Of a DNA stretch of 64,000 nucleotides, positions 1,390-57,047 are shown piece by piece; position 1 is the first letter of the stretch; the number at the start of each line of letters is the position of its first letter. Position numbers and translations under genes: made by a program. The DNA lies in contig CAKPOI010000001.1 in NCBI GenBank assembly GCA_934169775.1, positions 16,558 through 80,557 of the forward strand. The letters are read 5' to 3'. Source of the DNA: an uncultured Clostridia bacterium (lineage in GTDB: Bacteria > Bacillota > Clostridia > TANB77 > CAG-508). The notes below the pieces were generated by a model. It had not been told where the DNA came from. It saw nothing but the letters and a program-made list of their open reading frames with translations, and ran no database searches.

Positions 1390-1404
1390 TTTTTTCTTCC
1401 TTTC

Positions 1405-1468
1405 TGATGTTTTTGGGGACGGACTCAAAAAACACTAGTGTTTTTTTGCTCCGTCCCTAAAAACACTA
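1405..1468. repeat. Two inverted copies of the GC-rich intergenic repeat (TTTTGGGGACGGACTCAAAAAACACT / AGTGTTTTTTTGCTCCGTCCCTAAAAACACT) forming an imperfect palindrome.
   Basis: A GC-rich island in AT-rich DNA. Members of the same family occur at 7589, 24677, 42484, 42754, 47526 and 59851. Confidence 0.7.
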
Positions 1469-3926: not shown

Positions 3927-5411
3927 CTATTTTTTATTTTTTTCTAGTTTTTCAATAATTTCGTTTACTATTATTCTTTCGTCAAATGGATATTTTACTC
4001 CATTTATTTCTTGATATGGCTCATGTCCTTTTCCTGCTAATATTATTATGTCTTTTTTGTTTGCCATTTTTATTGCTTTTTCTATTGCTTCTGTTCTGTC
4101 TACTATTACTTCATATTTTCCTTTTGTCTTTTTTATTCCTTCTTCTATTTGATTTACTATTTTTTGTGGTTCTTCTGTTCTTGGATTGTCTGATGTTATT
4201 ATTGTGTAGTCTGCTATTTTTCCAGATATTTCACCCATTATTGGTCTTTTTCCGCTGTCTCTGTCTCCTCCACATCCAAATACTGAGATTACTCTTCCTC
4301 TTGTGTAACTTTTTGCTGCTTGTAATATATTTTGTAAGCTTTCTGGTGAGTGTGCATAGTCTATCATTATTGTTAGCTCTTCTTTGTTGTTTACTAATTC
4401 TGATCTTCCTGGTACTCTTACTTCTAATAATGCTTCTTTTATTATTTCTGGTGATATTCCAAATTTTTGTGCTACACATATTGCTGCTAATGAATTATAT
4501 ACACTAAATCTTCCTGGTATTCCTGTTTTTACTCTTTCATTTCTGTCTGTTATTTTTACTTTGAAGTCTACATATGCATTTGTTATTGTTATGTCTTTTG
4601 CTAATACATTTGCAAAGTTGTCTATTCCATATGTTGTTATATTGCTTTCTGGAAATAGCTTTGGTATTTTTGCTCCATGTAAGTCATCTACATTTACTAT
4701 TCCTGTTTTACACATGTGGAATAATTTTAGTTTTGATTGGAAATAGTCTTCCATGTTTGGATGTTCGTTTGGACTGATGTGGTCTTCTGAAAAGTTTGTG
4801 AATAATACTATATCAAATTTGCATCCGTCTACTCTATGTAATTTTAAGCTTTGTGAAGATACTTCCATTACTACAACTTCTACTCCTTCTTCTACCATTT
4901 GACTGAATAGTTGTTGTAATTCTAAGCTTTCTGGTGTTGTTCTGTCACTGTCTTTTATTTTCTTTCCATTTATATATGTTGCTATTGTTCCTATTAATCC
5001 TACTTTTTTGCCTGCTTTTTCTAGGATTTCTTTTATCATATATGTTGTTGTTGTTTTTCCTTTTGTTCCTGTTACTCCTATTAGTTTTAGCTTTGCTGAT
5101 GGATTTCCGTAAAAGTTTGATGCACTTATTGCTAATCCTTCTCTTGTGTTTGGTGCCATTATTACTGTTATTTCTTCTGGTATTTTTATTCCTTTTATAT
5201 TGCACCCTTCTTCTATCATTATTGCTGTTGCTCCGTTTTCTATTGCGTTTTCAATAAATTGGTGCCCATCTACTGCAAATCCTTTTATTGCTATAAATAG
5301 ATATCCTTCTTTTACTTCTTTTGAGTTTTTTTCTATTCCTTTTATTTCTTTATTTAAGTCTCCTCTTACTTTTAACCCTTCTAGCCCTATTAATATTTTT
5401 TTTAATTCCAT
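3927..5411 (-). CDS. murE: MurE, UDP-MurNAc-L-Ala-D-Glu:meso-DAP ligase (DNPR motif present).
   Basis: Mur ligase fold (GVTGTKGKTTT P-loop) and a DNPR motif near the C-terminus. Confidence 0.85.
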   Translation of the reverse strand: MELKKILIGLEGLKVRGDLNKEIKGIEKNSKEVKEGYLFIAIKGFAVDGHQFIENAIENGATAIMIEEGCNIKGIKIPEEITVIMAPNTREGLAISASNFYGNPSAKLKLIGVTGTKGKTTTTYMIKEILEKAGKKVGLIGTIATYINGKKIKDSDRTTPESLELQQLFSQMVEEGVEVVVMEVSSQSLKLHRVDGCKFDIVLFTNFSEDHISPNEHPNMEDYFQSKLKLFHMCKTGIVNVDDLHGAKIPKLFPESNITTYGIDNFANVLAKDITITNAYVDFKVKITDRNERVKTGIPGRFSVYNSLAAICVAQKFGISPEIIKEALLEVRVPGRSELVNNKEELTIMIDYAHSPESLQNILQAAKSYTRGRVISVFGCGGDRDSGKRPIMGEISGKIADYTIITSDNPRTEEPQKIVNQIEEGIKKTKGKYEVIVDRTEAIEKAIKMANKKDIIILAGKGHEPYQEINGVKYPFDERIIVNEIIEKLEKNKK

Positions 5412-5530: not shown

Positions 5531-5578
5531 GGGAAAAAATATAACTGTATAAATTATATTGCTAAAATTTATACAGTT
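5531..5578 (-). terminator. Rho-independent terminator downstream of the 5586..6815 gene.
   Basis: 13-bp stem AACTGTATAAATT/AATTTATACAGTT followed by a T-run on the minus strand. Confidence 0.45.
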
Positions 5579-5585
5579 TATTTTT

Positions 5586-6815
5586 TTATTTATAAAATGT
5601 ACTTCTGAAGCTAACATTGTTGTAGTTGTGTTTCGTATCATAATTTGAGCGACTAGCGGCTGAAAAACTAGAACCTGTATCATAATAACTGCCTCCTCTA
5701 ATAACACAGCTCTTATCATTGCTAGAATTAGCATATTCTAACGTCCATTCCCATTCATTTCCTGCTAAATCATATATATTCATTTTATTGGTTTCTTCTG
5801 ATGCTCCTGCTGATAATATAATATTACTTGCAGCTTTTGTTCCTGTTATTACTTCCCAAGTTTTGCCAGTATCTGTTGAATGTTTTGCATTTACACTTGA
5901 TATTGTCCTTGTTGTATTACTATAATTTCCCCAACTTGTACTATTGGAATTTATTTCGCCTATTGTTCCTCCACTTTTTATTTCTAAGAATTTGCATACT
6001 ATATCCCATTGAATTCCAAACATTAAACTACTTGTATAATCATTACTTGGTTTCATCTCTTTTGCTAATGCTTGTGCTTCACTACATAATAACCAGTTAT
6101 ATGGTATTGCATCTTTTTGACTTATTGCTTTTGGTGATATTCCAATTACTACATTTGAATGTGATGTTCTAGTTTTTGATGTATCTGTTGTACTTCCTTC
6201 TATTCCTGCTTCATATCTTGCAACCCAAAATCCTCCATAATTATATACACTTTTTAACATTTTTTGATATGCTTCTGTATATTCTTCTGAAGTCATTCCA
6301 CAGCCTTCGTACCATTCATCTTGCCAATTTAATCCTTGACCTGCTTTTCCTTCTCTATACGTTGTTGCATATGCTATTAATTTTTCTTTTATTGCTATAT
6401 AAATTTCAGTTGACATATTATTTGTATCAATTGTAAGTCCTGAAAACACTGTTGTTTTTGGTACTTCTACCCATACCCATTCATTATTATTTTTGTCTTT
6501 TATTACTATTCCTTTATTTGCATCTGATTCTATTACTGTTGAACCAGAAGGCATTGCTCCTGCTGGGTTTGTATTTGATAAATTTATATTATTAAAATTT
6601 GTTGCATTATTTAAAGCGTCTTCCATGTTTGACAATGTTTGTTCTTCTTCTTTTTGTGCTTGGCTAGTCTTTTCTTTTGCTTCTTTTGCTCTTGTTAATA
6701 TTCCATTGTCTCCACTTAAAGCCGCTATTGTCACTCCTGCTAGTATTAGAAGTACGATAGTTGTTATTACTAATGCTATTAATGTTATACCTTTATTTCT
6801 TATTTTGCTTTCCAT
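5586..6815 (-). CDS. Pilin-like N-terminal anchor plus FGE-sulfatase/C-type-lectin-fold domain protein. Paralog of the DGR target at 57048..58361; its C-terminal VR-like region has diverged from the TR.
   Basis: N-terminus KGITLIALVITTIVLLILAGVTIAALSG. C-terminal FGE/SUMF1-type motifs (GFWVARYEAG, AGNEWEWT, RGGSYY). About 75% identity to the 57048..58361 protein. Confidence 0.7.
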   Translation of the reverse strand: MESKIRNKGITLIALVITTIVLLILAGVTIAALSGDNGILTRAKEAKEKTSQAQKEEEQTLSNMEDALNNATNFNNINLSNTNPAGAMPSGSTVIESDANKGIVIKDKNNNEWVWVEVPKTTVFSGLTIDTNNMSTEIYIAIKEKLIAYATTYREGKAGQGLNWQDEWYEGCGMTSEEYTEAYQKMLKSVYNYGGFWVARYEAGIEGSTTDTSKTRTSHSNVVIGISPKAISQKDAIPYNWLLCSEAQALAKEMKPSNDYTSSLMFGIQWDIVCKFLEIKSGGTIGEINSNSTSWGNYSNTTRTISSVNAKHSTDTGKTWEVITGTKAASNIILSAGASEETNKMNIYDLAGNEWEWTLEYANSSNDKSCVIRGGSYYDTGSSFSAASRSNYDTKHNYNNVSFRSTFYK

Positions 6816-7173
6816 CTAAAACTCCATTCCTTTCTCACTTCACTCAATTGCTATATAGTTAATTTTTTTAAATTATTTTGCTTTTTAGTGAAGATATTAA
6901 ATTTTTTTCTTAAGTTTTTATATAAATCTTAAAGTCTTACTATTATATAGTATTTACATTTTTTTATTACTTTATACTTTATACATCGTTCCCCTCCTAT
7001 TCATTTTTATTCTTTTGTATTTTAAATACGAGTTTTGTCAATTTGTATTTTATCAAAAACTTTTTTTAGTGTAAATAGTTTTTTGTAAAAATATCATTTA
7101 TAAATTGTTTTTTATCGTTTATAAAATCATTCTAAAAATTTGCTTAAAAGTTTATATTATATTTATATATTAA

Positions 7174-7521
7174 TTGAAAGTAGGTAATTATATGAAAAAC
7201 ATTGAAATGAACGAACACATAGGAAAAGTTTGTCAAAAATATAGATTAAAAAATAAATTAACTCAAAATGAAGTTGCTGAATTAACTGGCCTAGAGCCTA
7301 GACATATTAGTCAAATTGAAAGAGGCATGTCAAAAGGGAGCATTGATACTTTAATTAAATTGTGTAATGCATATCAAATAACTCCTGATATAATTTTGTT
7401 TGATTTATTAGATAATAATATAAAAAACTCTATCTCTATATATGATGAGAAATTTAAAAAATTGAGTAAGCGTGACAAAGATTCTATTTTACATTTTATT
7501 GATTATTTTTTGTCTAAATAA
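7174..7521 (+). CDS. XRE-family helix-turn-helix transcriptional regulator.
   Basis: LTQNEVAELTGLEPRHISQIERG HTH motif. Confidence 0.75.
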   Translation: MKVGNYMKNIEMNEHIGKVCQKYRLKNKLTQNEVAELTGLEPRHISQIERGMSKGSIDTLIKLCNAYQITPDIILFDLLDNNIKNSISIYDEKFKKLSKRDKDSILHFIDYFLSK

Positions 7522-7541: not shown

Positions 7542-7580
7542 AACTAATGATTTTTCCCGTTTCGAATCATTAGTTTTTTT
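7542..7580 (+). terminator. Rho-independent terminator after the XRE gene.
   Basis: AACTAATGATT...AATCATTAGTT stem followed by T7. Confidence 0.55.
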
Positions 7581-7588
7581 GAATTTTT

Positions 7589-7660
7589 AGTGTTTTTTGA
7601 GTCCGGCCCCAAAAGCATTAGTGTTTTTTTGAGTCCGGCCCCAAAAGCACTAAAAACACT
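7589..7660. repeat. Two tandem copies of the GC-rich repeat (AGTGTTTTTTGAGTCCGGCCCCAAAAGCA) ending in an inverted AAAAACACT.
   Basis: Seen directly. Same family as the 1405, 24677, 42484, 42754, 47526 and 59851 copies. Confidence 0.7.
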
Positions 7661-7936
7661 TTAGATTTTTTTTAAATCTTCTCCGTATTTTATTCCTAAT
7701 GAATAACTAAATGCAAAATAATATTCTTCTGTTTTATAAAATAGTTTTATTATTTCATTAAATTTTTCTTTTTGTTCCCCTTCTAATGAATTGTCTAATT
7801 CTTCTATTAACTTTGATAAATTCATATAATACTTACTAAATTCTTTATTGTTCCCTAAAATATATGACTTGCTTTCTATAAAGTCACTTATATATTTATA
7901 ATCTTTATTTTCAAAAATTTTCATTTCAACTCTCAT
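7661..7936 (-). CDS. Hypothetical small protein (91 aa), convergent with the XRE gene.
   Basis: ORF only. No recognisable motif. Confidence 0.35.
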   Translation of the reverse strand: MRVEMKIFENKDYKYISDFIESKSYILGNNKEFSKYYMNLSKLIEELDNSLEGEQKEKFNEIIKLFYKTEEYYFAFSYSLGIKYGEDLKKI

Positions 7937-8155: not shown

Positions 8156-10264
8156 CTAATATTTCACAAAAACTTTATTTCCTTTATTTATCTTAATTCT
8201 TTCTGTTGGTGTCTGCTCTTTAATTATTATATTTTCTATATCTAGCCCCTCTTTATTTTCTTCTGTAATTCCCTCAATACTTATTTCTAATCCTACTTCT
8301 TTTAATATTTTCTTTGCTTCTTTTATTGATAATCCTGTTATATTTGGTACACTTACTTCCTCTATTTCTTCAGTTTCATTTCCCTGTACAACTTCTAAAT
8401 ATGGTAATATTTCGCTAAATATCTGACCTCCAACTGGAGCTGCAACTCCCCCTCCTTGGTGTCCTCCTTCTCCTGTTGGATTATATAAAGTAATTAGTAA
8501 AACAACTTGTGGGTCTTCTATTGGTGCTACTCCTAAAAAAGATGTAACATATTTGTTAGTGTTTACACCATCTTCAGAAGTTCCTGTTTTTCCACCAATT
8601 CTATAGCCTGCAACTTTAGCATTTTTTCCTGTTCCTTCAGAAACAACTGATTCCATCATACTTAAAACTTTTTCTGATGTTTCTTTAGAAATTGATTGTG
8701 ATTTTATTTTGACCTCTACATCTCTTTTTTCTCCTGTTTTACTGTCTATTATTTGTTTTACAACTCTAGGTTGAATTAAATTTCCTCCATTTGCAATGCT
8801 TGAAACTGCTGTAACTAATTGAATAGGAGTAATTTCAAACCTTTGGCCAAAACTTATTGTAGCTAATTCTACAGGTCCTGCTTTTTCTTCTTTTAAAAAT
8901 ATGCTTCCTCCTTCTCCTGGTAAGTCTATTCCTGTTTTTTCTAATAATCCGAATTTTTGTAAATAGCTATAATATGTATGAACTCCTAATTTTTGTCCAA
9001 GCCCTATAAATACTGGGTTACATGAGTTCATAAGTCCTTGTCTTAAGCTCTCTGAGCCATGTGGTCTATAATATCTCCAACATTTTATTCTTACTCCAGC
9101 TACTTCTATTCCTCCTGTACAGCAAAATTGTCCTTGTTTATCTATATCTGTAACTAGCCCTTCTTCTATAGATGCTGAGGCTGTTATTGTTTTAAATGTT
9201 GAGCCAGGTTCATATGTGTCTGCAATTGCTCTATTTCTCCAGACTGCTTGTAATTGTTTGGTCTTTTCTCCTTGTTCTAAATTTGGCCATATGCCTTGTA
9301 ATTCTTCTGTATATGCTGAATATGGATCATTTAAATTATATGTTGGATATGTTGCCATTGCCAAAATATCTCCTGTTTTTGGATTCATTGCTACTATGTT
9401 TCCACCATCTGTACACTTATTGTCAATACATGCTTCTTTTAAATATTTTTCTACTATTGATTGAATATTATAATCTATTGATAATACTAAATCATTTCCA
9501 TCTATTGCTGCAATATATTTTTCTCCTTCTTCGCCTATTTCTGCACCTTTAGCATCTGTATGCCTTTTAATCGCTCCTTTGGTTCCTGCTAGTTCTTTTT
9601 CGTATTTTGCTTCTATTCCATCAAGCCCTTGATTGTCACTACCACAAAATCCTATTATTTGTGCAGCTAAGCTGTTATTAGGATAATATCTTTTTGTGTC
9701 TTCATCTATATTTATTCCTGTGGTTATGTTGTTTTGTTCCATCCATTCTCTTAATTGGTCTGTTTTTTCTTTATCTACTTTTTTTACAATTGTTTCTATT
9801 GAACTTCTTTTTGTTACTTTTTTTAATATTTTTTCGTAGTCTAATTCAAATAATTCTGATAATTTTTTGGCTACTAATTCTTTTTTGTCTTTTTCTATAT
9901 TTCCCGGATTTACTGTTACTGTTTCTACTGTACTACTTATTGCTAATATATATTTTCCTGTACTATCATATATTGTTCCTCTTTTTGGATTTATTGCTCT
10001 GTCTAATGTTTGCTGTTCATATGCCATTGATGATAATTCTCCTCCTTGTATTATTTGTATAAATCCTATTCTTCCTATTAAAATTGTAAAAACTAAAAAT
10101 GATGTAAATAATATATTTCTCATTCTTTTTTTGGTAGATATTTCACTTGTTATTGTTTTATTTTTTATTCTTTTTTTTGTTGGTATTTCTCTTGTTTTTT
10201 TGTTTTTTCTTTTTTTGGTAGATACTCTTAATTTTTTGTCTTCTTTTCTTTTATATGTATTCAT
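8156..10264 (-). CDS. Class B penicillin-binding protein (FtsI/PBP2B-like transpeptidase) with a C-terminal PASTA domain.
   Basis: Dimerisation and transpeptidase motifs (STFK, SSN-like, KTGT) plus a PASTA-like C-terminus. Located between ftsL and murE. Has a K-rich N-terminal extension. Confidence 0.85.
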   Translation of the reverse strand: MNTYKRKEDKKLRVSTKKRKNKKTREIPTKKRIKNKTITSEISTKKRMRNILFTSFLVFTILIGRIGFIQIIQGGELSSMAYEQQTLDRAINPKRGTIYDSTGKYILAISSTVETVTVNPGNIEKDKKELVAKKLSELFELDYEKILKKVTKRSSIETIVKKVDKEKTDQLREWMEQNNITTGINIDEDTKRYYPNNSLAAQIIGFCGSDNQGLDGIEAKYEKELAGTKGAIKRHTDAKGAEIGEEGEKYIAAIDGNDLVLSIDYNIQSIVEKYLKEACIDNKCTDGGNIVAMNPKTGDILAMATYPTYNLNDPYSAYTEELQGIWPNLEQGEKTKQLQAVWRNRAIADTYEPGSTFKTITASASIEEGLVTDIDKQGQFCCTGGIEVAGVRIKCWRYYRPHGSESLRQGLMNSCNPVFIGLGQKLGVHTYYSYLQKFGLLEKTGIDLPGEGGSIFLKEEKAGPVELATISFGQRFEITPIQLVTAVSSIANGGNLIQPRVVKQIIDSKTGEKRDVEVKIKSQSISKETSEKVLSMMESVVSEGTGKNAKVAGYRIGGKTGTSEDGVNTNKYVTSFLGVAPIEDPQVVLLITLYNPTGEGGHQGGGVAAPVGGQIFSEILPYLEVVQGNETEEIEEVSVPNITGLSIKEAKKILKEVGLEISIEGITEENKEGLDIENIIIKEQTPTERIKINKGNKVFVKY

Positions 10265-15178: not shown

Positions 15179-15775
15179 TTATATTATTTTCATTTTTACT
15201 TCTTTACCTTTAAATGCAAATACCATTTTTGTTATGTTTGTATATCCTCTTTCTTGTAAATCTTCTTCGTATTTTCTTTCTTCTTTTTTGTCTTGGACAT
15301 CAAAGTCTTTTATAATTTTATCCATTTCTTTTGCTGTTATGCCAAAGTCGTCACTAAATTCGTCATCTAATACTGTATATACATCAAAGTTGTTTGCTCC
15401 ACTAAATATGCTTTCTTTTGCTACTCTTGATACTCCTGTTAATACTGTTTTTTCTAAGCATAGATTATCCTTGAATGTTGTTCCATAAAATATTTTGAAG
15501 AATTTTATGGCTTCTTGATAATATCCTTCTATATATGCATTTTGTAATGGTACATCATATTCGTTTAAAAATAGCATTACTGGCTTATCATAATATCTAT
15601 TTAAATATTTACTTAGTGTTTTTATACTGTTTCTTAATACTATTTCATCTTCTTTATATGATAATATTTCTTTTATTTGTTCTTTTTCAAATGGATATTG
15701 TTTTGTCTATATAATAATTTTTTCTTATCCTTATCCCTCTAAAATCGCTTTCTCCTATTCCTATTCCGTACATTT
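15179..15775 (-). pseudogene. Internally deleted remnant of the AAA-ATPase/PD-(D/E)XK gene found intact at 52951..54627.
   Basis: N- and C-terminal segments are about 85-90% identical in nucleotide sequence to the 52951-54627 copy, with the middle roughly 1.1 kb missing. C-terminal peptide RKYEEDLQERGYTNITKMVFAFKGKEVKM is shared. Confidence 0.7.
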
Positions 15776-38022: not shown

Positions 38023-38577
38023 TTATATATCATAAAAATATGTTGCTTCTAAGTCTGCTTCATGTACTAATAATGCTAATGGGTATTTTTTGTATGCTAA
38101 TCCTATTGTTGTGTATTGTTCTTTTGGCTCTGTAAATCCCATATGCCATCTTATACAGTATTTCTCTTCTGGAGTTAGTTTCATGTATTCTGTTATCATC
38201 ATTACTGATTTTTCTCCATGTCCATATGGAATTGTGTCATCAATTGTATAATATGGAACCTTTTCCCATACTCCTAATGCGTTTTTGGCATTTCTGTAAT
38301 CTACTTTATAAAAGTTTGCTTTGCACAAATCATGTAATAATGCTATTATTATTAATGATTCTTCAGACACTTTTAATGGTTCTACATTTGTTTGTACTTT
38401 ATGTTTTAATATTTCATATACTTTTAAACTGTGTTCTACTAATCCTCCTTCATAGTCTCCATGAAATCTTGTGCTTGCTGGTGCCTTAAAAAAGTCTGTT
38501 TTTTGTATAAATTCTATTAAATCATTTATTCCTTCCCTATTTACTGTTTTTAATAATTCTAAAAATTGTTCTTTCAT
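38023..38577 (-). CDS. HD-domain phosphohydrolase.
   Basis: H...HD motif (IIALLHDLCK). Confidence 0.55.
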   Translation of the reverse strand: MKEQFLELLKTVNREGINDLIEFIQKTDFFKAPASTRFHGDYEGGLVEHSLKVYEILKHKVQTNVEPLKVSEESLIIIALLHDLCKANFYKVDYRNAKNALGVWEKVPYYTIDDTIPYGHGEKSVMMITEYMKLTPEEKYCIRWHMGFTEPKEQYTTIGLAYKKYPLALLVHEADLEATYFYDI

Positions 38578-39107
38578 TATTTTTCATATTCCTTTCTTTT
38601 TGTGTCATTATATGTTACATTATATAATCCATCTTCCATTTGTTCTAGCATATAGTAATCTGTTCCGTTATATTCTATTTTTTCTCCTGCTATTACTATT
38701 CTTTCTTTTATGTTTATTATATAGTTTCTTTTTACATTTTCTATTCCAAATGTTTCTTTTATGTATTCTGGTGTGCATAATCGACATCCATTTTTTATTT
38801 CTGTTAGTTTTGAACTGTCATTTTGGGCTTTCTTTTGTAATTGCTCTCCAACTTCTGCTGATTCTAATATTAGTTGTTCTTCTGTTCCTAATTCTGTTCC
38901 TATTGTTTTGTTTTCTTTTTCGTATTCCTCTCCTATTTCATTTACTTTTGTTTGCACTAGTTCTAATTCTGTTTTTAATGCTGTATATTTAGATGATTTT
39001 ATGCTATCTTTGCTTACTGCTATTCCTGTTCCTGCAAGTATTATTAATACTGCTATTACTACTGCTAAGCTTATTAGCGTAATTCCGCTTTCTTTTTTCA
39101 TTTTCAT
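38577..39107 (-). CDS. Small pilin-like protein with the same N-terminal anchor type as the DGR target proteins.
   Basis: MKMKKESGITLISLAVVIAVLIILAGTGIAV N-terminus (G-ITLI-A class-III-signal-like). Confidence 0.45.
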   Translation of the reverse strand: MKMKKESGITLISLAVVIAVLIILAGTGIAVSKDSIKSSKYTALKTELELVQTKVNEIGEEYEKENKTIGTELGTEEQLILESAEVGEQLQKKAQNDSSKLTEIKNGCRLCTPEYIKETFGIENVKRNYIINIKERIVIAGEKIEYNGTDYYMLEQMEDGLYNVTYNDTKRKEYEK

Positions 39108-41874: not shown

Positions 41875-42480
41875 ATGCAAAAAAATATACAAAAAAATAT
41901 ACCAAATATTCTAACTATTTTTAGATTTATTCTTATACCTATTATTTTATATTTTATTTTTACTAGACATTATTTATTAGGTTTTATATTTTTTACCATC
42001 TCTGGTATTACTGATATTTTAGATGGTGCAATTGCAAGAAAATTTAATCTTGTTACTAATTTTGGAAAATTGATGGATCCATTGGCTGATAAGCTTACTC
42101 AGGTTTCTGTTTTGGCTACTCTTGTTTTTCAAAAGATTATTCCTTTTTGGATTCTTGTAGTTGTTCTTCTTAAGGAACTTTTGATGATTATTGGTGCTTC
42201 TTTCCTTTATGGTAAAGATGTTGTTGTTTATAGCAAATGGTTTGGTAAACTTGCTACTGTTCTTTTCTACCTTGCTATTGTTTGCTCTTTGATTAATAAA
42301 GAATTTGCTCTTACTGGTGTTTGGCAAAATTTAGATTTTATTCTTTATTGTATTGCCGTTATTGCTACTGTCTTTTCTTTTATTATGTATGTTAAATACT
42401 TATATAAAGATGGCTTTATTGATAAAAGTGATTTGAAAAAAGAGAAGCAACCTGTTATTATCAATAAAAAGAATAAGTAG
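41875..42480 (+). CDS. pgsA: CDP-diacylglycerol--glycerol-3-phosphate 3-phosphatidyltransferase (CDP-alcohol phosphatidyltransferase family).
   Basis: DGxxAR...G...D...D motif (DILDGAIARKFN...GKLMDPLADK). Confidence 0.75.
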   Translation: MQKNIQKNIPNILTIFRFILIPIILYFIFTRHYLLGFIFFTISGITDILDGAIARKFNLVTNFGKLMDPLADKLTQVSVLATLVFQKIIPFWILVVVLLKELLMIIGASFLYGKDVVVYSKWFGKLATVLFYLAIVCSLINKEFALTGVWQNLDFILYCIAVIATVFSFIMYVKYLYKDGFIDKSDLKKEKQPVIINKKNK

Positions 42481-42483
42481 CTG

Positions 42484-42784
42484 ATGTTTTTGGGGACGGA
42501 CTCAAAAAACATCACTATTACATATCATTAAAAATAATAAATGTTATATGGTTTAATAATTTTCTCGGTTCAATACACAAACTAAAAATTTCTAAAATAA
42601 AATAATGTAATCCTTCAGCTTAGTCCTCACTTCGTTCGACGTGAAGCTCTTCCATCATTTTATTTAAGAAATTCTAAGATTGTTCCAATCACATTCGAAA
42701 ATTATTCTTCCATATAACATTTATTATTTTTTATATAATTTGAAAAGATATATGGTGTTTTTTGAGTCCGTCCCCAAAAACATC
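42484..42784. mobile_element. MITE-like non-autonomous element. Two inverted copies of the GC-rich repeat (about 30 bp, GATGTTTTTGGGGACGGACTCAAAAAACATC / its reverse complement) flank 240 bp with no ORF that carries the GC-rich core shared with 34381..34583.
   Basis: Inverted termini at 42484-42513 and 42754-42784. The internal CTTAGTCCTCACTTCGTTCGACGTGAAGCTCTT is about 90% identical to the reverse complement of 34454-34486. Confidence 0.5.
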
Positions 42785-47315: not shown

Positions 47316-47525
47316 TTTCTTTCTCCTTATTTTATTATATTCATTTTTTGAAAGTACTTTTCTTAATATATCATATTTTTCTTATTTTGTCAAATTTTTA
47401 CTGAAGTCAAATGTAGAATCGTTTAATGTGAATTGAAAAAATGTAGTAAATTTTCATTCATTTTACTACATTTTTCGATCTTTATTTTTTGTTATTGATT
47501 AACATACTAATATTAATCTTAATAT

Positions 47526-47585
47526 GGTGCTTTTTGAGTCCGGCCCCAAAAGCATTAATCTTATAAGTCCGGTCCCTAAAGCATC
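47526..47585. repeat. Two tandem GC-rich repeat copies (GAGTCCGGCCCCAAAAGCATTA / AAGTCCGGTCCCTAAAGCATC).
   Basis: Seen directly. Intergenic, between the NlpC/P60 gene and ppaC. Confidence 0.65.
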
Positions 47586-52950: not shown

Positions 52951-54627
52951 TTATATTAATTGCATTTTTACTTCTTTTCCTTTAAATGCAAATACCATTT
53001 TTGTTATGTTTGTATATCCTTTTTCTTGTAGATCTTCTTCATATTTTCTTTCTTCTATTTGCTTTTTGGCATTTTCTATTGTGTCTTCTATATCTTTTTC
53101 TCTGTCCTCTTTGTATACTTTAAATTCCATTATAAAGCTGTTTCCGTTTTTGTCTTTTGGTTCTAACATTATATCGTATCTTCCATATCCTGATTCTCTA
53201 TTGGATTTTACATAGTAGCTGTCTTTTAAGCCTACTAACATTCCTAATACAAATGCATGGTAAAAGTTTTCTGCTGTGTTTTCGCCTACATCCATATAAC
53301 TGAACATTTGAGTTACTAGTACCTTGAATTTTGTTTCAAATTCATCTAAATTTAATGTTATTAAGTCTTTTAATATTGTATTTAAATTGTTTCCTATTAC
53401 TTTATCATTAAACCATTCTCTTATTATGGTTTGAAATAAGAATTTTATTTCATAATTTGGTATTTTTACTTTGTATATTCCTGTTGCTAAATCTACTACT
53501 TCTGTTACTTTTAAATATCCTGTTCCTAATAATAGTCCCCAGATATTTTCTTCGTTTTGCTCTATTCCTACTATTACTGTGTCTAAATTTATTGGTACTT
53601 CTATTTCTTCATCTCGTAATAATTGCTCTATTTTTTCTTTTACTGTTACACTATTTTTTAGTATTAATTTTATTAAGTCATTTGAACTTGTGTTTACCCA
53701 ATATGGCATTAATTTTCTGTCTGTTAAATAGTTTAATATGCTCCATGGATTATATATTCCTTCTGTGTTTCCTATTGTGTATCCATCATACCACTTTTTA
53801 ATTTCGTCTTTTTCGTCTTGTATTTCAAAATCTTGTATAATTTTATCCATTTCTTTTTCTGTTATTCCAAAGTCATCACTGAATTCGTCATCTAATACTG
53901 TATATACTTTAAAGTTATTTGCTCCACTAAATATGCTTTCTTTTGCTACTCTTGATACTCCTGTTAATACTGTTTTTTCTAAATATGGATTGTCCTTAAA
54001 TGTCGTTCCATAAAATATTTTGAAAAATGATATTCCTTTTTCATAATAACTATTTACATATGCTGTTTGTAAAGGTACATCATATTCATCTAAAAATAAC
54101 ATTACTGGTTTATCATAATAGCGTGATAAATATTCGCTCAAATCTTTTACACTATTTTTTAAGGTTACTTCATCTTCTCTAAAATATAATATATCATTTA
54201 TTTTTTCTTTTTCAAATGGATATATCTTATCACTATCTAACAAGTACATATGTTCTTTATATGTATTTAACATTGCTGTTTTCATATTTAGTATCATGTT
54301 TTCATATGTGCTTTCGTTTACATCTTTTAATGTTATGTATATACATGGATAATATCCTAGCTTTGATGTGTATTTTTCATCTTGTTCCATTATTTTTAGG
54401 CCTTCAAATATTTCTTTACTGTCTTTTTTTGTACAGTCAAAATAGTATTTTAACATACTCATGTTTAGCGTTTTTCCGAATCTTCTTGGTCTTGTTACTA
54501 ATATTACTGATGCCTCATTGTCTATTATATCTTTTATATACATGGTTTTGTCTATATAATAGTTTTTTCTTATTCTTAATGCTTTAAAATCACTTTGCCC
54601 TATTCCTATTCCATACATATACCTCAC
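52951..54627 (-). CDS. AAA-ATPase-like / PD-(D/E)XK nuclease family protein (DUF1703-type), 558 aa. Intact copy of the remnant at 15179..15775.
   Basis: N-terminal YGIGIGQSDFKALR...VTRPRRFGKTLNMSML (AAA-ATPase-like). C-terminal nuclease-like region (FDIM...EFKV). Confidence 0.65.
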   Translation of the reverse strand: MRYMYGIGIGQSDFKALRIRKNYYIDKTMYIKDIIDNEASVILVTRPRRFGKTLNMSMLKYYFDCTKKDSKEIFEGLKIMEQDEKYTSKLGYYPCIYITLKDVNESTYENMILNMKTAMLNTYKEHMYLLDSDKIYPFEKEKINDILYFREDEVTLKNSVKDLSEYLSRYYDKPVMLFLDEYDVPLQTAYVNSYYEKGISFFKIFYGTTFKDNPYLEKTVLTGVSRVAKESIFSGANNFKVYTVLDDEFSDDFGITEKEMDKIIQDFEIQDEKDEIKKWYDGYTIGNTEGIYNPWSILNYLTDRKLMPYWVNTSSNDLIKLILKNSVTVKEKIEQLLRDEEIEVPINLDTVIVGIEQNEENIWGLLLGTGYLKVTEVVDLATGIYKVKIPNYEIKFLFQTIIREWFNDKVIGNNLNTILKDLITLNLDEFETKFKVLVTQMFSYMDVGENTAENFYHAFVLGMLVGLKDSYYVKSNRESGYGRYDIMLEPKDKNGNSFIMEFKVYKEDREKDIEDTIENAKKQIEERKYEEDLQEKGYTNITKMVFAFKGKEVKMQLI

Positions 54628-54727: not shown

Positions 54728-54976
54728 TTATTTGCTTTTTACTAGCTCTTTTATAACTATTTGTTTTTCTTCTATTCTTCCTTCTATCCATATTATATCT
54801 TCTTTTTTTAATTTTCTATAGCATTTGTCTGCTATCTCGTTATATCCTATTACTTTTATTTTTGATTTGTTATCTAATTCTATTTCAAATATTATTACTG
54901 CATCTGCATTTCTTATAAATGTAAATTTATATTCTGGTTCTGTTATTATTTTTCCTTTTATAAAACATATATTCAT
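54728..54976 (-). CDS. Hypothetical small protein (82 aa), possibly an OB-fold.
   Basis: ORF only. Confidence 0.3.
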   Translation of the reverse strand: MNICFIKGKIITEPEYKFTFIRNADAVIIFEIELDNKSKIKVIGYNEIADKCYRKLKKEDIIWIEGRIEEKQIVIKELVKSK

Positions 54977-55181
54977 TTCTTTTTCCTTTTTTTATTTACT
55001 TGCGTAAAATAAATACATTCAATTTCTTTACTAATATTTATTTTACTGATTCTTTTTTACCTATTCTTATTATTTTTTCTATTTTTATATATTTAATAAT
55101 TTCGGAAGGAATAAATCTCTTTAATACTAATACCTTTACTGTATATATTCCGTAAAATATATAATCTGAAATTTGTATTAG

Positions 55182-55315
55182 AGTGCTGGACGGAAACTAA
55201 TATTGTTGTTGCTGTTAGTCGTGCTATTGTTATTACGGTTAGAGGCTGGATTATTAGAGCCTGTATTGTTGTAATTGCCTCCCCTGTTGGCACAAGGATT
55301 GCTACTGTTGGAAGT
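55182..55315 (-). other. DGR template repeat (TR), 134 bp, located 68 bp downstream of the RT gene.
   Basis: 134-bp homology to 57061-57194 (VR). All 16 differences lie at TR adenines (sense strand). The TR is rich in AAC/AAT codons. Homology ends at ...AGTGCTGG. Confidence 0.85.
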
Positions 55316-55383
55316 TTTCGATTTATCCCTAATTTTCTTTTTTTGTTTATATTGTAATATTAAATTAAGTTATTTTATATTTT

Positions 55384-56169
55384 TTATTCTATGTAAAATA
55401 ATTTGTTTGTTAAATTGTATACATTTGCTATTTGTATATATCCCATATGTCCTGCTAAATATTTTTTTGCTTCTTGTTTTGTTTTTACAAATATTATGCT
55501 GTCGTCCAAATATCTTTTATAATATTTTATTTTTAACTTATGCTTTATGTATTGGTCTACTTCATTTAAATATATGTTTGCAAACATTTGTGATGTGTAA
55601 TTTCCTATTTCTAATCCTTTTGGTCTTTTCTGTGCATATATTATTTCTTCTAATAACCATATTACATCTTTGTCTTTTATTTTTCTTTTTAATATTTTTA
55701 GTAATGTTTGTTTGTCTATATTATCAAAATATTTTGATATATCCATTTTTAGTATATAATATTCTCCCCATTTAGCTTTACAGTGTTTCATTGTTTTTTG
55801 TGTGTCTAAACATGCTTTATGCATTCCTCTGTTTTTTATACATGCATATGTGGTTTTTATAAATTGTGGTACATATGCTGGTTCTAAAAATTTGTCTACT
55901 ACCCATCTGTGTACTATTCTGTCTATATATCTTGATTTTTCTATTTTTCTTACTTTTGGTTCTGTTACATAAAATTCTGTATATCCTCCATGCCTGTATG
56001 TTTTGGTTTTTAGTTTTTCTAATAGCCACATTATATATTCTTCTTGTTTTAAATTAAATTCTATTATTTCTTTTCTATAGCCTTTTCCTTTTTGTGATTC
56101 TTTATGTGCAAGCATTAGTTTTTCGTATGTTAGGTTTTCTTCATATTTGTTTCGTATCGTTTTTGGCAT
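55384..56169 (-). CDS. Diversity-generating retroelement reverse transcriptase (261 aa; short, thumb region reduced).
   Basis: RT motifs 1-5 with the DGR-specific IGNYTSQ motif 4 ([I/L/V]GxxxSQ instead of QGxxxSP) and a YLDD catalytic box. The N-terminus aligns with Bordetella bRT-like RTs. Confidence 0.8.
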   Translation of the reverse strand: MPKTIRNKYEENLTYEKLMLAHKESQKGKGYRKEIIEFNLKQEEYIMWLLEKLKTKTYRHGGYTEFYVTEPKVRKIEKSRYIDRIVHRWVVDKFLEPAYVPQFIKTTYACIKNRGMHKACLDTQKTMKHCKAKWGEYYILKMDISKYFDNIDKQTLLKILKRKIKDKDVIWLLEEIIYAQKRPKGLEIGNYTSQMFANIYLNEVDQYIKHKLKIKYYKRYLDDSIIFVKTKQEAKKYLAGHMGYIQIANVYNLTNKLFYIE

Positions 56170-56530
56170 AGTATTTTATTAGTCCTCCTAATATTTTTCC
56201 TATTTCATATATTTGCTCCATTGCTATTCTGAATTTCTTTTCATCTATCCATTGGTTCTTTTTCATTATTCTTAAATAAATTCTTTGTGTATTTAGTTCT
56301 GCATCTATATGGTTTAATGTTTCTATTATTTGACTTTTTTCTCCTTTACCTATTTTGTTTATATACATTATTTTTCTTATCATTTGATACATACTTTGTT
56401 TATATTCGTTTCCTATACTAAATTTTTCTATTCTTGGAAGTTTTATTATTACCTGTAATATGTATTCTATATATTTTTCTGCCTTTGGTATTAATTGTAG
56501 TTTATTTTCTTTTTCACTCTTTTTATCCAT
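56141..56530 (-). CDS. avd: Avd-like accessory variability determinant (129-aa basic helical-bundle protein); overlaps the RT start.
   Basis: Size, basic helical character, and its position immediately upstream of and overlapping the DGR RT. Confidence 0.55.
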   Translation of the reverse strand: MDKKSEKENKLQLIPKAEKYIEYILQVIIKLPRIEKFSIGNEYKQSMYQMIRKIMYINKIGKGEKSQIIETLNHIDAELNTQRIYLRIMKKNQWIDEKKFRIAMEQIYEIGKILGGLIKYYAKNDTKQI

Positions 56531-56779
56531 TTAATCGTTTTCCTTTTTATTGCTTCTATATTCTTTTTCTTCTAATTTTTTCATATATGTTTCTATTGAA
56601 TTTACTGGTATTCCTATTTTACATACTTCTGGTTCCATGCATAATAACTTTAACCCTAATATTTCGTTTAATTTTACTGCGTCTTTTCCTCTCGCTAAAT
56701 AAAATGCTCCTGCATTTGTCAATATTATGTATCCTTTATTTTTTTCTTGTAATAATTCTAACATTTTACTAAATCCCAT
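56531..56779 (-). CDS. Small protein resembling MutS mismatch-binding domain I (82 aa); first gene of the avd-RT operon.
   Basis: AGAFYLARGKDAVKLNEILGLKL...IGIPVNSIETYMKKL aligns with MutS domain I ([23 protein letters not shown]...AGIPYHAVENYLAKL). The mismatch-contacting Glu is replaced by Leu. Confidence 0.35.
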   Translation of the reverse strand: MGFSKMLELLQEKNKGYIILTNAGAFYLARGKDAVKLNEILGLKLLCMEPEVCKIGIPVNSIETYMKKLEEKEYRSNKKEND

Positions 56780-56843: not shown

Positions 56844-56880
56844 AAAAAAAACGCTACCGCCAGGTAGCGCTACCTCCAGG
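56844..56880 (-). terminator. Rho-independent terminator about 170 bp downstream of the DGR target gene.
   Basis: Minus strand reads CGCTACC-TGGC-GGTAGCG followed by T8. Confidence 0.55.
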
Positions 56881-57047
56881 TGAAAAATTGTATTTCTGGA
56901 TTTACCAAGAACAAGTTCTTGATAAATTCTGTCCTTCAATTTTCCACCTGCCTCTAGCGTATTTCATTCGCTAGAGGGTACTTATTATTCAATTTACCGG
57001 CTATAAAATGGCTCTCTCGCCTATTTTATAATCACGGGCTTTAGCTT

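What the first reader, a model, noticed from the sequence alone, without database searches (positions are those of the whole stretch)
5586..6815. Second, diverged copy of the DGR target gene embedded in the dcw cluster
A 409-aa paralog (about 75% identical, same pilin-like N-terminus and FGE/CLec domain) sits between pbp and murE. Its C-terminal VR-equivalent (5589-5720) is recognisably related to the TR but differs at many non-adenine positions. It is therefore not a faithful current VR of this TR. Possible explanations: a former or remote DGR target that escaped diversification; a target of another TR; or a duplicated cargo gene. Its location inside the essential division/cell-wall operon is striking.
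Basis: seen in the sequence. Interest (0 to 1): 0.6.

Follow-up and report, generated by a model that had tools for sequence, protein, structure and literature searches.

The report
Frozen paralog of a DGR target
The gene between ftsI and murE is an intact but no longer hypermutating relative of the nearby retroelement-diversified surface-protein gene, one of many dispersed copies of a large gut-Clostridia gene family, so it is an ordinary "frozen" paralog and not a hidden mutation target.

Summary
ORF 5586-6815 (-) encodes a 409-aa paralog of the DGR target at 57048-58361 (67% aa, 77% nt identity). It lies between ftsI/PBP and murE. Its last 137 nt (5596-5732) align in register with the TR (55182-55318) but differ at 21/53 adenine and 35/87 non-adenine sites, so there is no A bias. 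The true VR differs at 17/53 and 1/87. The IMH-equivalent is degenerate (11/20).

No cognate TR was found in the window, in seven related TRs, or in 385 kb of related loci. Residues 101-409 are identical in all four protein variants of its 90% cluster (17 contigs), and the DNA is identical across six strains whose flanks are about 1% polymorphic. It is therefore not being diversified.

It is not simply a second copy. The family has more than 7,900 relatives, at least four in this genome, scattered among housekeeping operons.

Fossil signs point to a once-diversified ancestor: NNY codons at 14/16 AAY positions, and family-wide hypervariability at exactly those columns.

Best reading: a frozen, fixed-specificity paralog with its own terminator. 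The window's DGR itself looks degraded, with in-frame deletions in the RT and in the MutS-like gene.

This is a known kind of thing and of low interest.

The parts
5586..6815 (-). T2: intact 409-aa paralog of the DGR variable protein. It has a pilin-like N-terminal hydrophobic helix, a linker, and an FGE-sulfatase/CLec-like domain.
   Evidence: ORF. 67% aa and 77% nt identity to T1. Pfam FGE-sulfatase E = 1.3e-4. SUMF2 E = 3.3e-4. Core dN/dS 0.55. Zero nucleotide differences at 5586-6740 among six strains.
5596..5732 (-). VR-equivalent of T2: homologous to the TR and VR1 but not cognate, and not variable between strains.
   Evidence: In register with TR 55182-55318 (D3). 21/53 A-site and 35/87 non-A mismatches. 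14/16 NNY codons at TR AAY positions, p = 4e-6. dS 1.23 against 0.34 in the core. Identical in 17 contigs.
5534..5586 (-). AT-rich hairpin followed by a U-run just after the T2 stop codon. Terminator-like, so T2 appears to be its own transcription unit upstream of murE.
   Evidence: RNA fold -16.6 kcal/mol, z = -6.5, 0/200 shuffles as stable. Sequence. The consensus terminator scan missed it because the stem has too few G-C pairs.
7174..7521 (+). XRE-type HTH regulator gene, transcribed divergently from T2. Part of the block inserted between ftsI and murE.
   Evidence: NCBIfam RstR-like E = 1e-12, below its cutoff. PHROG transcriptional regulators. HTH_3 in the near-identical contigs L019-L022.
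7661..7936 (-). Small ORF (91 aa here, called as 87 aa in other assemblies) downstream of ftsI. Weak DUF6809 match. Part of the inserted block.
   Evidence: Pfam DUF6809 E = 5.8e-4, below its cutoff. Present in L019-L022.
7574..7631 (.). Tandem copies of a dispersed hairpin repeat lying between the convergent orf91 and HTH genes. Probable bidirectional terminator closing the mraZ-ftsI unit.
   Evidence: Repeat families D8 and D11. Fold -21.1 kcal/mol, z = -3.9.
3927..5411 (-). murE, the downstream dcw neighbour.
   Evidence: Mur_ligase, Mur_ligase_M and Mur_ligase_C domains.
8156..10264 (-). ftsI-type PBP, the upstream dcw neighbour.
   Evidence: PBP_dimer, Transpeptidase and PASTA domains.
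57048..58361 (-). T1: the cognate DGR target (437 aa). VR1 lies at 57061-57197.
   Evidence: 17 mismatches to the TR at TR adenines, plus one non-adenine mismatch at the 3' boundary (55181).
55182..55318 (-). Template repeat (TR) of the window's DGR.
55384..56169 (-). DGR reverse transcriptase, 261 aa, carrying an in-frame 231-nt deletion that removes motifs 6/7 and the thumb.
   Evidence: RVT_1 E = 1.6e-13, profile positions 16-170 of 205. Alignment to relatives of 336-338 aa. The deletion lies between 14-nt direct repeats.
56141..56530 (-). bAvd accessory gene.
   Evidence: Pfam bAvd E = 2.9e-19.
56531..56779 (-). MutS-domain-I-like accessory gene, 82 aa here against 149 aa in close relatives (internal deletion).
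   Evidence: MutS_I E = 2.9e-7. Alignment to L148.

Best explanation
T2 (5586-6815, minus strand) is a functional, non-diversifying ('frozen') member of a large, lineage-specific family in low-GC uncultured gut Clostridia. Family proteins have a pilin-like N-terminal hydrophobic anchor and a C-terminal FGE-sulfatase/C-type-lectin-like ligand-binding domain. One member, T1, is the cognate target of the window's DGR.

T2's last 137 nt are homologous to the VR/TR module but are no longer templated by any TR I could find. They have drifted at non-adenine scaffold positions, they have lost the IMH match needed for retrohoming, and they do not vary between strains.

T2 most likely descends from a DGR-diversified ancestor. 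DGR linkage in this family is older than the T1/T2 split. After duplication and dispersal, one binding-site variant was fixed.

Shown: T2 has its own terminator-like hairpin. Inferred: it is expressed as its own unit, with a promoter region shared with a divergent XRE-type regulator, inserted between ftsI and murE. Inferred: it works as a fixed-specificity surface binding protein or adhesin, not as a hypervariable one.
For: Not a current VR:
- 35/87 non-A against 21/53 A-site mismatches to the TR (Fisher p = 1.0). VR1 has 1/87 and 17/53.
- The IMH-equivalent matches at only 11/20 positions (sequences).

No cognate TR found:
- An 'identical or A' compatibility scan of the window recovers the TR for VR1 at 137/137. 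For VR2 it finds nothing above the A-rich background, at most 119/147.
- TRs of seven related DGR loci mismatch VR2 at about 41% of non-A sites.
- 385 kb of related loci contain no match.

Static:
- The four protein variants of T2's 90% cluster, carried on 17 contigs from several cohorts, are identical over residues 101-409.
- There are 0 nucleotide differences at 5586-6740 among six strains, while flanking DNA is about 1.2% polymorphic.

Functional, not a pseudogene:
- The ORF is intact, and core dN/dS is 0.55.

Once diversified:
- At the 16 TR AAY codon positions, T2 has NNY in 14 cases against a background of 31% (p = 4e-6). 15/16 residues are reachable by A-mutagenesis.
- Across 62 family members, AAY-aligned columns carry 2.85 bits of entropy. 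Scaffold columns carry 1.12 and the rest of the protein 0.62 (p = 5e-8).
- A family member only about 40% identical (L012) sits in the same MSL-Avd-RT-TR cassette with a cognate TR (3/82 non-A mismatches). DGR linkage therefore predates the T1/T2 split.

Ordinary for the family:
- More than 7,900 relatives, and at least seven members on one 1.47-Mb contig.
- At least four members in this genome.
- Other paralogs sit singly among housekeeping genes, with non-cognate VR-equivalents showing 13-47% non-A mismatch.

Own transcription unit:
- Hairpin plus U-run after the stop codon.
Against: The rest of the genome (about 1.4 Mb) was not available, so a second TR elsewhere is not excluded directly.

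The NNY signal is partly forced by amino-acid composition, because Tyr, Asn, Asp, His and Phe have only NNY codons.

Synonymous divergence in the VR-equivalent (dS 1.23) is well above the core (0.34). The region could therefore come from an old lineage that was never a target of this TR lineage.

The fold and the pilin-like anchor rest on sub-threshold sequence hits. The AlphaFold model was unusable (pLDDT 36.8).

SNP-free stretches of similar length also occur in mraY. Invariance shows the absence of hypermutation, not unusual conservation.

Function, localisation and regulation by the HTH gene are inferred only.
Confidence: 0.7

Rival explanations
1. T2 is an active remote target of a second DGR/TR located outside the window, elsewhere in the chromosome or on a phage or plasmid.
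For: Multi-target and remote-target DGRs are known (PMC7517822, read). VR scaffolds resembling T2's occur in other family members such as P0031 and P0112, so several TR lineages probably exist. Only 64 kb of about 1.4 Mb is visible.
Against: The VR-equivalent is identical at protein level in 17 contigs and at DNA level in six strains that differ by about 1% in flanking DNA. No compatible TR was found in the window, in seven related TRs, in 385 kb of related loci, or with a predicted-TR pattern in viral contigs. No RT, Avd or MSL remnant lies near T2.
Confidence: 0.04
2. T2 was never diversified. It belongs to a paralog lineage that has always been static. Its resemblance to the VR/TR reflects only shared ancestry of the CLec binding-site scaffold, and the Tyr/Ser/Asn/Asp-rich positions reflect selection for a binding surface.
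For: There is no A bias at all in mismatches to the TR. dS in this region is near saturation. Much of the NNY enrichment is dictated by amino-acid identity. Non-cognate paralogs are the majority of the family members examined.
Against: Family-wide variability is concentrated at exactly the TR AAY columns. The same DGR cassette type targets a much more distant family member (L012), which makes a diversified common ancestor of T1 and T2 the more parsimonious reading. Four of T2's five Ser codons at AAY positions are AGY, one A-to-G step from AAY.
Confidence: 0.2
3. T2 is a decaying relic or pseudogene of a duplicated DGR cargo gene with no current function.
For: It is unlinked from the DGR, and its VR-equivalent has drifted. 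Other DGR components in the window carry deletions.
Against: The 409-codon ORF is intact in an AT-rich genome. Core dN/dS is 0.55 and N-terminal helix dN/dS is 0.12. The sequence is identical in many strains. It has its own terminator-like hairpin.
Confidence: 0.05

Closest known systems
Non-cognate or 'remnant' paralogs of DGR variable proteins, e.g. Nostoc sp. PCC 7120 all3226 (Vallota-Eastman et al. 2020, PMC7517822)
   Same: A CLec-type paralog dispersed away from the RT. It keeps recognisable but imperfect TR-VR homology at the 3' end of the gene. That paper interprets such genes as dispersal of a target followed by loss of diversification once a variant is fixed.
   Different: Here the host is a small-genome gut Clostridia lineage. 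The N-terminus is a pilin-like anchor, not a kinase or caspase domain. Divergence from the TR is much greater (40% at non-A sites). The copy sits between ftsI and murE.
FGE-sulfatase-type C-type-lectin-fold DGR variable proteins, e.g. Treponema denticola TvpA (from my own knowledge: Le Coq & Ghosh 2011)
   Same: FGE-like domain with the GNxWEW...RGG...FR signature. The variable region lies at the extreme C-terminus and is written from AAY codons of the TR. T1 shows this directly, and T2 is 67% identical to T1.
   Different: T2 itself is not diversified. Its FGE assignment is below Pfam's threshold. The anchor is a pilin-like helix, not a lipoprotein signal.
DGR-diversified pilus adhesins of gut Bacteroides (bioRxiv 10.1101/2024.11.15.621889)
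   Same: A gut commensal DGR acting on putative surface or pilus-associated binding proteins (abstract listed).
   Different: Those are type V pilus components. Here there is only an N-terminal type IV pilin-like helix, with no evidence of pilus assembly. The gene in question is the static paralog.
Type IV pilins and pseudopilins (prepilin N-terminal methylation motif, PF07963)
   Same: A Gly followed by a roughly 20-residue hydrophobic helix (KG|ITLIALVITTIVLLILAGV). 17/64 family members hit N_methyl. There are weak PDB hits to geopilin and MshA N-termini.
   Different: T2 itself gives no N_methyl hit at E <= 0.01. The conserved Glu5 is Ala. No pilus genes were seen next to it.

Membership tests
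Active DGR variable region (VR) of the window's TR | VR-TR mismatches confined to adenines of the TR | tested here: not met
   21/53 A-site and 35/87 non-A mismatches, Fisher p = 1.0. The true VR1 has 17/53 and 1/87.
Active DGR variable region (VR) of the window's TR | IMH at the 3' end of the VR matching the TR's 3' end | tested here: not met
   VR1 and the TR are identical up to 55182, with one C/T difference at 55181. T2's equivalent 20 nt match at only 11 positions.
Active DGR variable region (VR) of the window's TR | Hypervariability of the VR between strains or within populations | tested here: not met
   Identical in the four cluster variants on 17 contigs. 0 nucleotide differences in six strains. 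Read-level variation was not testable.
Active DGR variable region (VR) of the window's TR | Position at the 3' end of a CLec/FGE-type ORF | tested here: met
   The VR-equivalent 5596-5732 ends 8 nt before the stop codon (5586-5588).
Active DGR variable region of some other TR | Existence of a TR compatible with VR2 at all non-A positions | tested here: inconclusive
   None in the window, in seven related TRs, in 385 kb of related loci, or in viral contigs using a predicted-TR pattern. The metagenome scan was uninformative because poly-A satisfied the pattern.
DGR variable-protein family (homologs of a bona fide target) | Full-length homology to a protein whose VR is cognate to a TR | tested here: met
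   67% aa identity to T1 over 407 residues. tblastn E = 1e-170.
FGE-sulfatase / C-type-lectin fold | Significant match to the FGE-sulfatase domain or to a solved FGE/CLec structure | tested here: inconclusive
   Pfam PF03781 E = 1.3e-4, score 22.2 below the gathering score of 23.3. SUMF2 1y4j E = 3.3e-4. 22/64 relatives hit PF03781. The AF2 model had pLDDT 36.8, so no fold search was run.
Type IV pilin-like proteins (prepilin N-terminal methylation motif) | G(-1), hydrophobic N-terminal helix and conserved Glu5; N_methyl profile match | tested here: inconclusive
   The Gly and the helix are present, but position 5 is Ala. No N_methyl hit for T2 at E <= 0.01 and no NCBIfam pilin hit. 17/64 relatives hit N_methyl, best E = 2.8e-4.
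Type IV pilin-like proteins (prepilin N-terminal methylation motif) | Prepilin peptidase and pilus-assembly genes in the genome | not tested
   None noticed in the window. The rest of the genome is unavailable.
Canonical dcw (division / cell-wall) cluster gene | Conserved position and co-transcription within mraZ-rsmH-ftsL-ftsI-murE-mraY... | tested here: not met
   T2, an HTH gene and a small ORF form an insert between ftsI and murE. The insert is bounded by hairpin or terminator-like elements. A relative (L008) has a different arrangement upstream of murE: family gene, then pyrB, pyrI, murE.

The most novel reading that the evidence does not exclude
The family works as a DGR-seeded repertoire. 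One locus (T1) is the 'writing' site where new binding specificities are generated. Duplicates such as T2 are dispersed and archived as fixed specificities under their own regulators. The repertoire outlives the generator, which is visibly decaying in this strain (deletions in the RT and the MutS-like gene). A weaker variant of this reading is that T2 is still rewritten occasionally by an unseen second TR.
Probability: 0.2. Interest if true: 0.5.

Novelty: new member of a known kind. Interest (0 to 1): 0.22.

Why it matters
It shows what to expect when a DGR target belongs to a multigene family. Most copies are static relics whose VR-like tails resemble the TR but fail the adenine-specificity, IMH and population-variability tests. 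They should not be counted as remote targets in DGR surveys.

The locus also gives a small natural series of decay stages:
- an intact cassette in related strains;
- a cognate VR next to a deleted RT in this strain;
- fully unlinked paralogs.

The series could be used to study how DGR-generated variants become fixed. Beyond that it is an ordinary case of a documented phenomenon.

Tried and rejected
1. Metagenome-wide search for a cognate TR with an IUPAC pattern allowing 'VR2 base or A' at each position. The pattern is satisfied by poly-A, and all 3,040 matches were at least 95% A.
2. A predicted-TR pattern, keeping the VR2 scaffold and resetting the variable codons to AAY, run against viral contigs. 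It gave 0 hits. This is weak negative evidence.
3. AlphaFold2 on a 62-sequence family alignment gave mean pLDDT 36.8. The model was unusable, so no fold search was run. The alignment was too shallow, with all members 63-73% identical to T2.
5. Phage origin: there were no PHROG hits for T1 or T2 and no tblastn match in 50,697 phage records. Rejected.
6. L008 (rabbit MAG) as a positional ortholog in the dcw cluster: rejected. It is a 598-aa variant separated from murE by pyrB and pyrI.
7. Gene conversion or mosaicism between T2 and the other paralogs: the high-identity blocks are shared with all three paralogs, so they look like constraint. Only the N-terminal 100 residues differ among T2 alleles.
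8. A conserved 'HTH regulator plus family gene' module: a second family member (P0009) also has a divergent HTH_3 gene upstream, but the two regulators are only 32% identical over 57 aa. Not established.
9. The consensus terminator scan found nothing. The hairpin after T2 is AT-rich and was detected only by folding.
10. Unusual conservation of T2 as a sign of a selective sweep: rejected, because mraY has an SNP-free stretch of similar length.

Full report
**Setting.** The window is low-GC (about 27%) chromosomal DNA. Homologous loci all come from uncultured gut Clostridia MAGs.

A DGR lies on the minus strand at 55-58 kb. Its components are:
- target gene T1 (57048-58361, 437 aa);
- a MutS-domain-I-like gene (56531-56779);
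- bAvd (56141-56530);
- the RT (55384-56169);
- the TR (55182-55318).

VR1 (57061-57197) differs from the TR at 18 positions. Seventeen are TR adenines, and one is a C/T difference at the 3' boundary. T1 is therefore a genuine DGR target.

**Checking the observation.** ORF 5586-6815 (-) is intact and encodes 409 aa. It aligns end to end with T1 at 67% aa and 77% nt identity.

Pfam annotation of the window proteins, and of 99%-identical contigs, gives the order mraZ-rsmH-ftsL-ftsI(PBP)-orf87/91-HTH(opposite strand)-T2-murE-mraY-ftsW-murG. The 'between pbp and murE' description is correct.

The repeat finder places 5593-5732 in ungapped register with the TR and VR1, at 60% identity to the TR.

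**Is it a VR of this TR?** No.
- Over 140 aligned positions, T2 differs from the TR at 21/53 adenines and 35/87 non-adenines (Fisher p = 1.0). VR1 shows 17/53 and 1/87.
- The GC-rich 3' segment shared by VR1 and the TR (AGTTTCCGTCCAGCACT) is AGCTTCAGAAGTACATT in T2, 11/20 identical over the terminal 20 nt.
- From established DGR biology (my own knowledge of the BPP-1 system), retrohoming needs the IMH and flanking homology. This TR should therefore not be able to home into T2.

**Is it a VR of another TR?**
- A scan asking, at each position, for 'the VR base or A' recovers the true TR for VR1 at 137/137. For VR2 it finds nothing beyond A-rich background, at most 119/147.
- TRs from six contigs carrying a 93%-identical full-length RT, and from a more distant cassette (L012), are also non-cognate, with about 41% non-A mismatch.
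- Nothing compatible exists in 385 kb of related loci.
- A predicted-TR pattern gave no hit in viral contigs.
- My metagenome-wide degenerate search was invalid because poly-A satisfies the pattern.
- No RT, Avd or MSL remnant lies near T2.
- The remainder of the genome could not be examined.

**Is it being diversified?**
- T2's 90%-identity cluster has four sequence variants on 17 contigs from several cohorts. They differ only within the first 100 residues. Residues 101-409, including the whole VR-equivalent, are identical.
- At DNA level, 5586-6740 shows 0 differences among the window and five independent contigs. The adjacent 245 nt of murE has 9 polymorphic sites, and the 10-kb neighbourhood averages 1.2% polymorphic columns.
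- A similar SNP-free stretch occurs in mraY. The result means 'no hypermutation', not 'exceptional conservation'.
- Circumstantially, all six contigs shown that carry the intact RT (of 13 read) end at or just after the target's VR, whereas T2 assembles cleanly in contigs of 20-34 kb.

**What it belongs to.**
- T2 is not simply 'the second copy'. The homology search returned 7,981 significant relatives (the candidate cap). Seven of the 120 listed hits lie on one 1.47-Mb contig.
- The source contig (109 kb) carries at least four members: T1, T2, P0017 and P0098. In another assembly a P0098-like gene and P0017 are tandem, next to IS256-type transposase genes.
- In the 1.47-Mb genome, members sit singly beside spoIIIA/recA and near rpoB. 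Elsewhere they form tandem arrays.
- Apart from T1 with its TR and the L012 target with its TR (3/82 non-A mismatches), every paralog tested is non-cognate to every TR tested, with 13-47% non-A mismatch.
- T2's state and its placement among housekeeping genes are therefore typical for the family.

**Domain content.**
- Pfam FGE-sulfatase matches residues 294-404 at E = 1.3e-4, just under the gathering score.
- PDB SUMF2 matches at E = 3.3e-4 through the YDLAGNEWEWT...RGGS signature.
- 22/64 family members hit FGE-sulfatase and 17/64 hit the prepilin N_methyl motif.
- The N-terminus (KG|ITLIALVITTIVLLILAGV) looks pilin-like but has Ala where type IV pilins have Glu5. T2 itself gives no N_methyl or NCBIfam pilin hit.
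- An AlphaFold model was unusable at pLDDT 36.8.
- There is no phage relationship.

**Was it ever diversified?** Three lines suggest so.
1. At the 16 codons that are AAY in the TR, T2 has a pyrimidine in the third position 14 times, against 31% elsewhere in the gene (p = 4e-6). 15/16 residues belong to the set reachable from AAY. Part of this signal is forced by Tyr/Asn/Asp/His/Phe codon structure.
2. Across 62 family members, AAY-aligned columns have 2.85 bits of entropy. Scaffold columns have 1.12 and the rest of the protein 0.62 (p = 5e-8).
3. A target only about 40% identical to T1 and T2 sits in the same MSL-Avd-RT-TR cassette with a cognate TR. DGR linkage is therefore older than the T1/T2 split.

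Against this, synonymous divergence in the VR-equivalent is near saturation (dS 1.23 against 0.34 in the core). The separation from this TR lineage is old, and a never-diversified lineage cannot be excluded.

**Expression unit.**
- Immediately after the stop codon there is a 13-bp-core AT-rich hairpin followed by a U-run (-16.6 kcal/mol, z = -6.5).
- Between the convergent orf91 and HTH genes there are two copies of a dispersed hairpin repeat.
- Promoter-like matches are no more frequent than in shuffled sequence, so promoters are not assigned.
- By inference, the insert splits the dcw cluster into mraZ-ftsI(-orf91), T2, and murE-onward units.
- The core of T2 has dN/dS 0.55 and the N-terminal helix 0.12. 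This is consistent with a working gene.

**State of the DGR itself.**
- The RT is 261 aa. Relatives 91-93% identical are 338 aa.
- The difference is a 231-nt in-frame deletion between two 14-nt direct repeats (AAGAAGCAAAAAAA). It removes the LNKKTQIF (motif 6) and GVNFCGY (motif 7) segments and the thumb.
- The same deletion occurs in a second allele (P0137), so it is not an assembly artefact.
- The MutS-like gene is 82 aa against 149 aa in relatives, through another internal deletion.
- By inference from general RT structure-function knowledge, this cassette is probably inactive. T1 may then be on the same path that T2 has already travelled.

**Comparison with known systems.** Paralogs of DGR variable proteins that lie away from the RT and keep only remnant TR-VR homology have been described in cyanobacteria. 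There they are interpreted as dispersal followed by loss of diversification (PMC7517822). T2 is a further example in a different lineage, with a different N-terminal module.

**Verdict.** The gene is a frozen, non-cognate paralog in a large family. This is a new member of a known kind and of low interest.

Noticed in passing
window 55384-56169 (-): The DGR reverse transcriptase carries an in-frame 231-nt (77-codon) deletion between two 14-nt direct repeats (AAGAAGCAAAAAAA). It removes motifs 6/7 and the thumb. Relatives 91-93% identical are 338 aa. The same deletion is present in a second allele (P0137). The cassette is probably inactive, although VR1 still records adenine-specific mutagenesis.
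   Followed up: partly
window 56531-56779 (-): The MutS-domain-I-like accessory gene is 82 aa here but 149 aa in close relatives (L148, L149) and 167 aa as an ORF in L012. An internal deletion of about 200 nt removes the C-terminal half, including a CxxC motif.
   Followed up: partly
L145-L150 (contigs carrying the intact 338-aa RT): All six contigs shown (of 13 read) break within or just downstream of the target gene's VR. The window's locus, with the deleted RT, assembles straight through. This fits VR heterogeneity only where the RT is intact, though paralog repeats could also break assemblies.
   Followed up: no
window 1391-1468, 7574-7631, 24668-24708, 42468-42525, 47517-47557: A dispersed hairpin-forming repeat of about 40-58 nt (GGGGCCGGACTCAAAAAA / GCTCCGTCCCCAAAAGCA type) sits at gene-cluster boundaries. 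It is tandem at 7574-7631. It may be a terminator or REP-like element.
   Followed up: partly
window 38577-39107 (-): A 176-aa ORF with no Pfam match shares the same pilin-like N-terminus (SGITLISLAVVIAVLIILAG). The anchor is therefore used by other proteins in this genome.
   Followed up: partly
window 15182-15773 (-) and 52951-54627 (-): The AAA-ATPase/PDDEXK_9 gene (558 aa), which lies downstream of the DGR past a small 82-aa ORF, has a second, heavily deleted remnant copy at about 15.2-15.8 kb. Only residues 4-31, 134-284 and 479-558 are matched there.
   Followed up: partly
window 6741-6940: A cluster of about 25 substitutions and indels at the 5' end of T2 and just upstream is specific to the window's strain when compared with five other strains. 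The rest of T2 is identical. Two other T2 alleles (P0122, P0123) have a different N-terminal 100 residues, slightly closer to paralog P0098's N-terminus than to T2's (77 vs 74 of 100). Recombination at the 5' end of the gene may be involved.
   Followed up: partly
window 54728-54976 (-): An 82-aa ORF just downstream of the TR is conserved next to the DGR in related loci (83-85 aa). One source names it a single-stranded DNA-binding protein. It has no Pfam, NCBIfam or PHROG match above threshold. It could be an additional DGR accessory gene.
   Followed up: no
window 56871-56944: The spacer between VR1 and the MutS-like gene has a 74-nt insertion relative to L148. Conserved hairpins lie nearby (56950-56978, and GCGCTACCTGGCGGTAGCG at about 56850-56868).
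   Followed up: no
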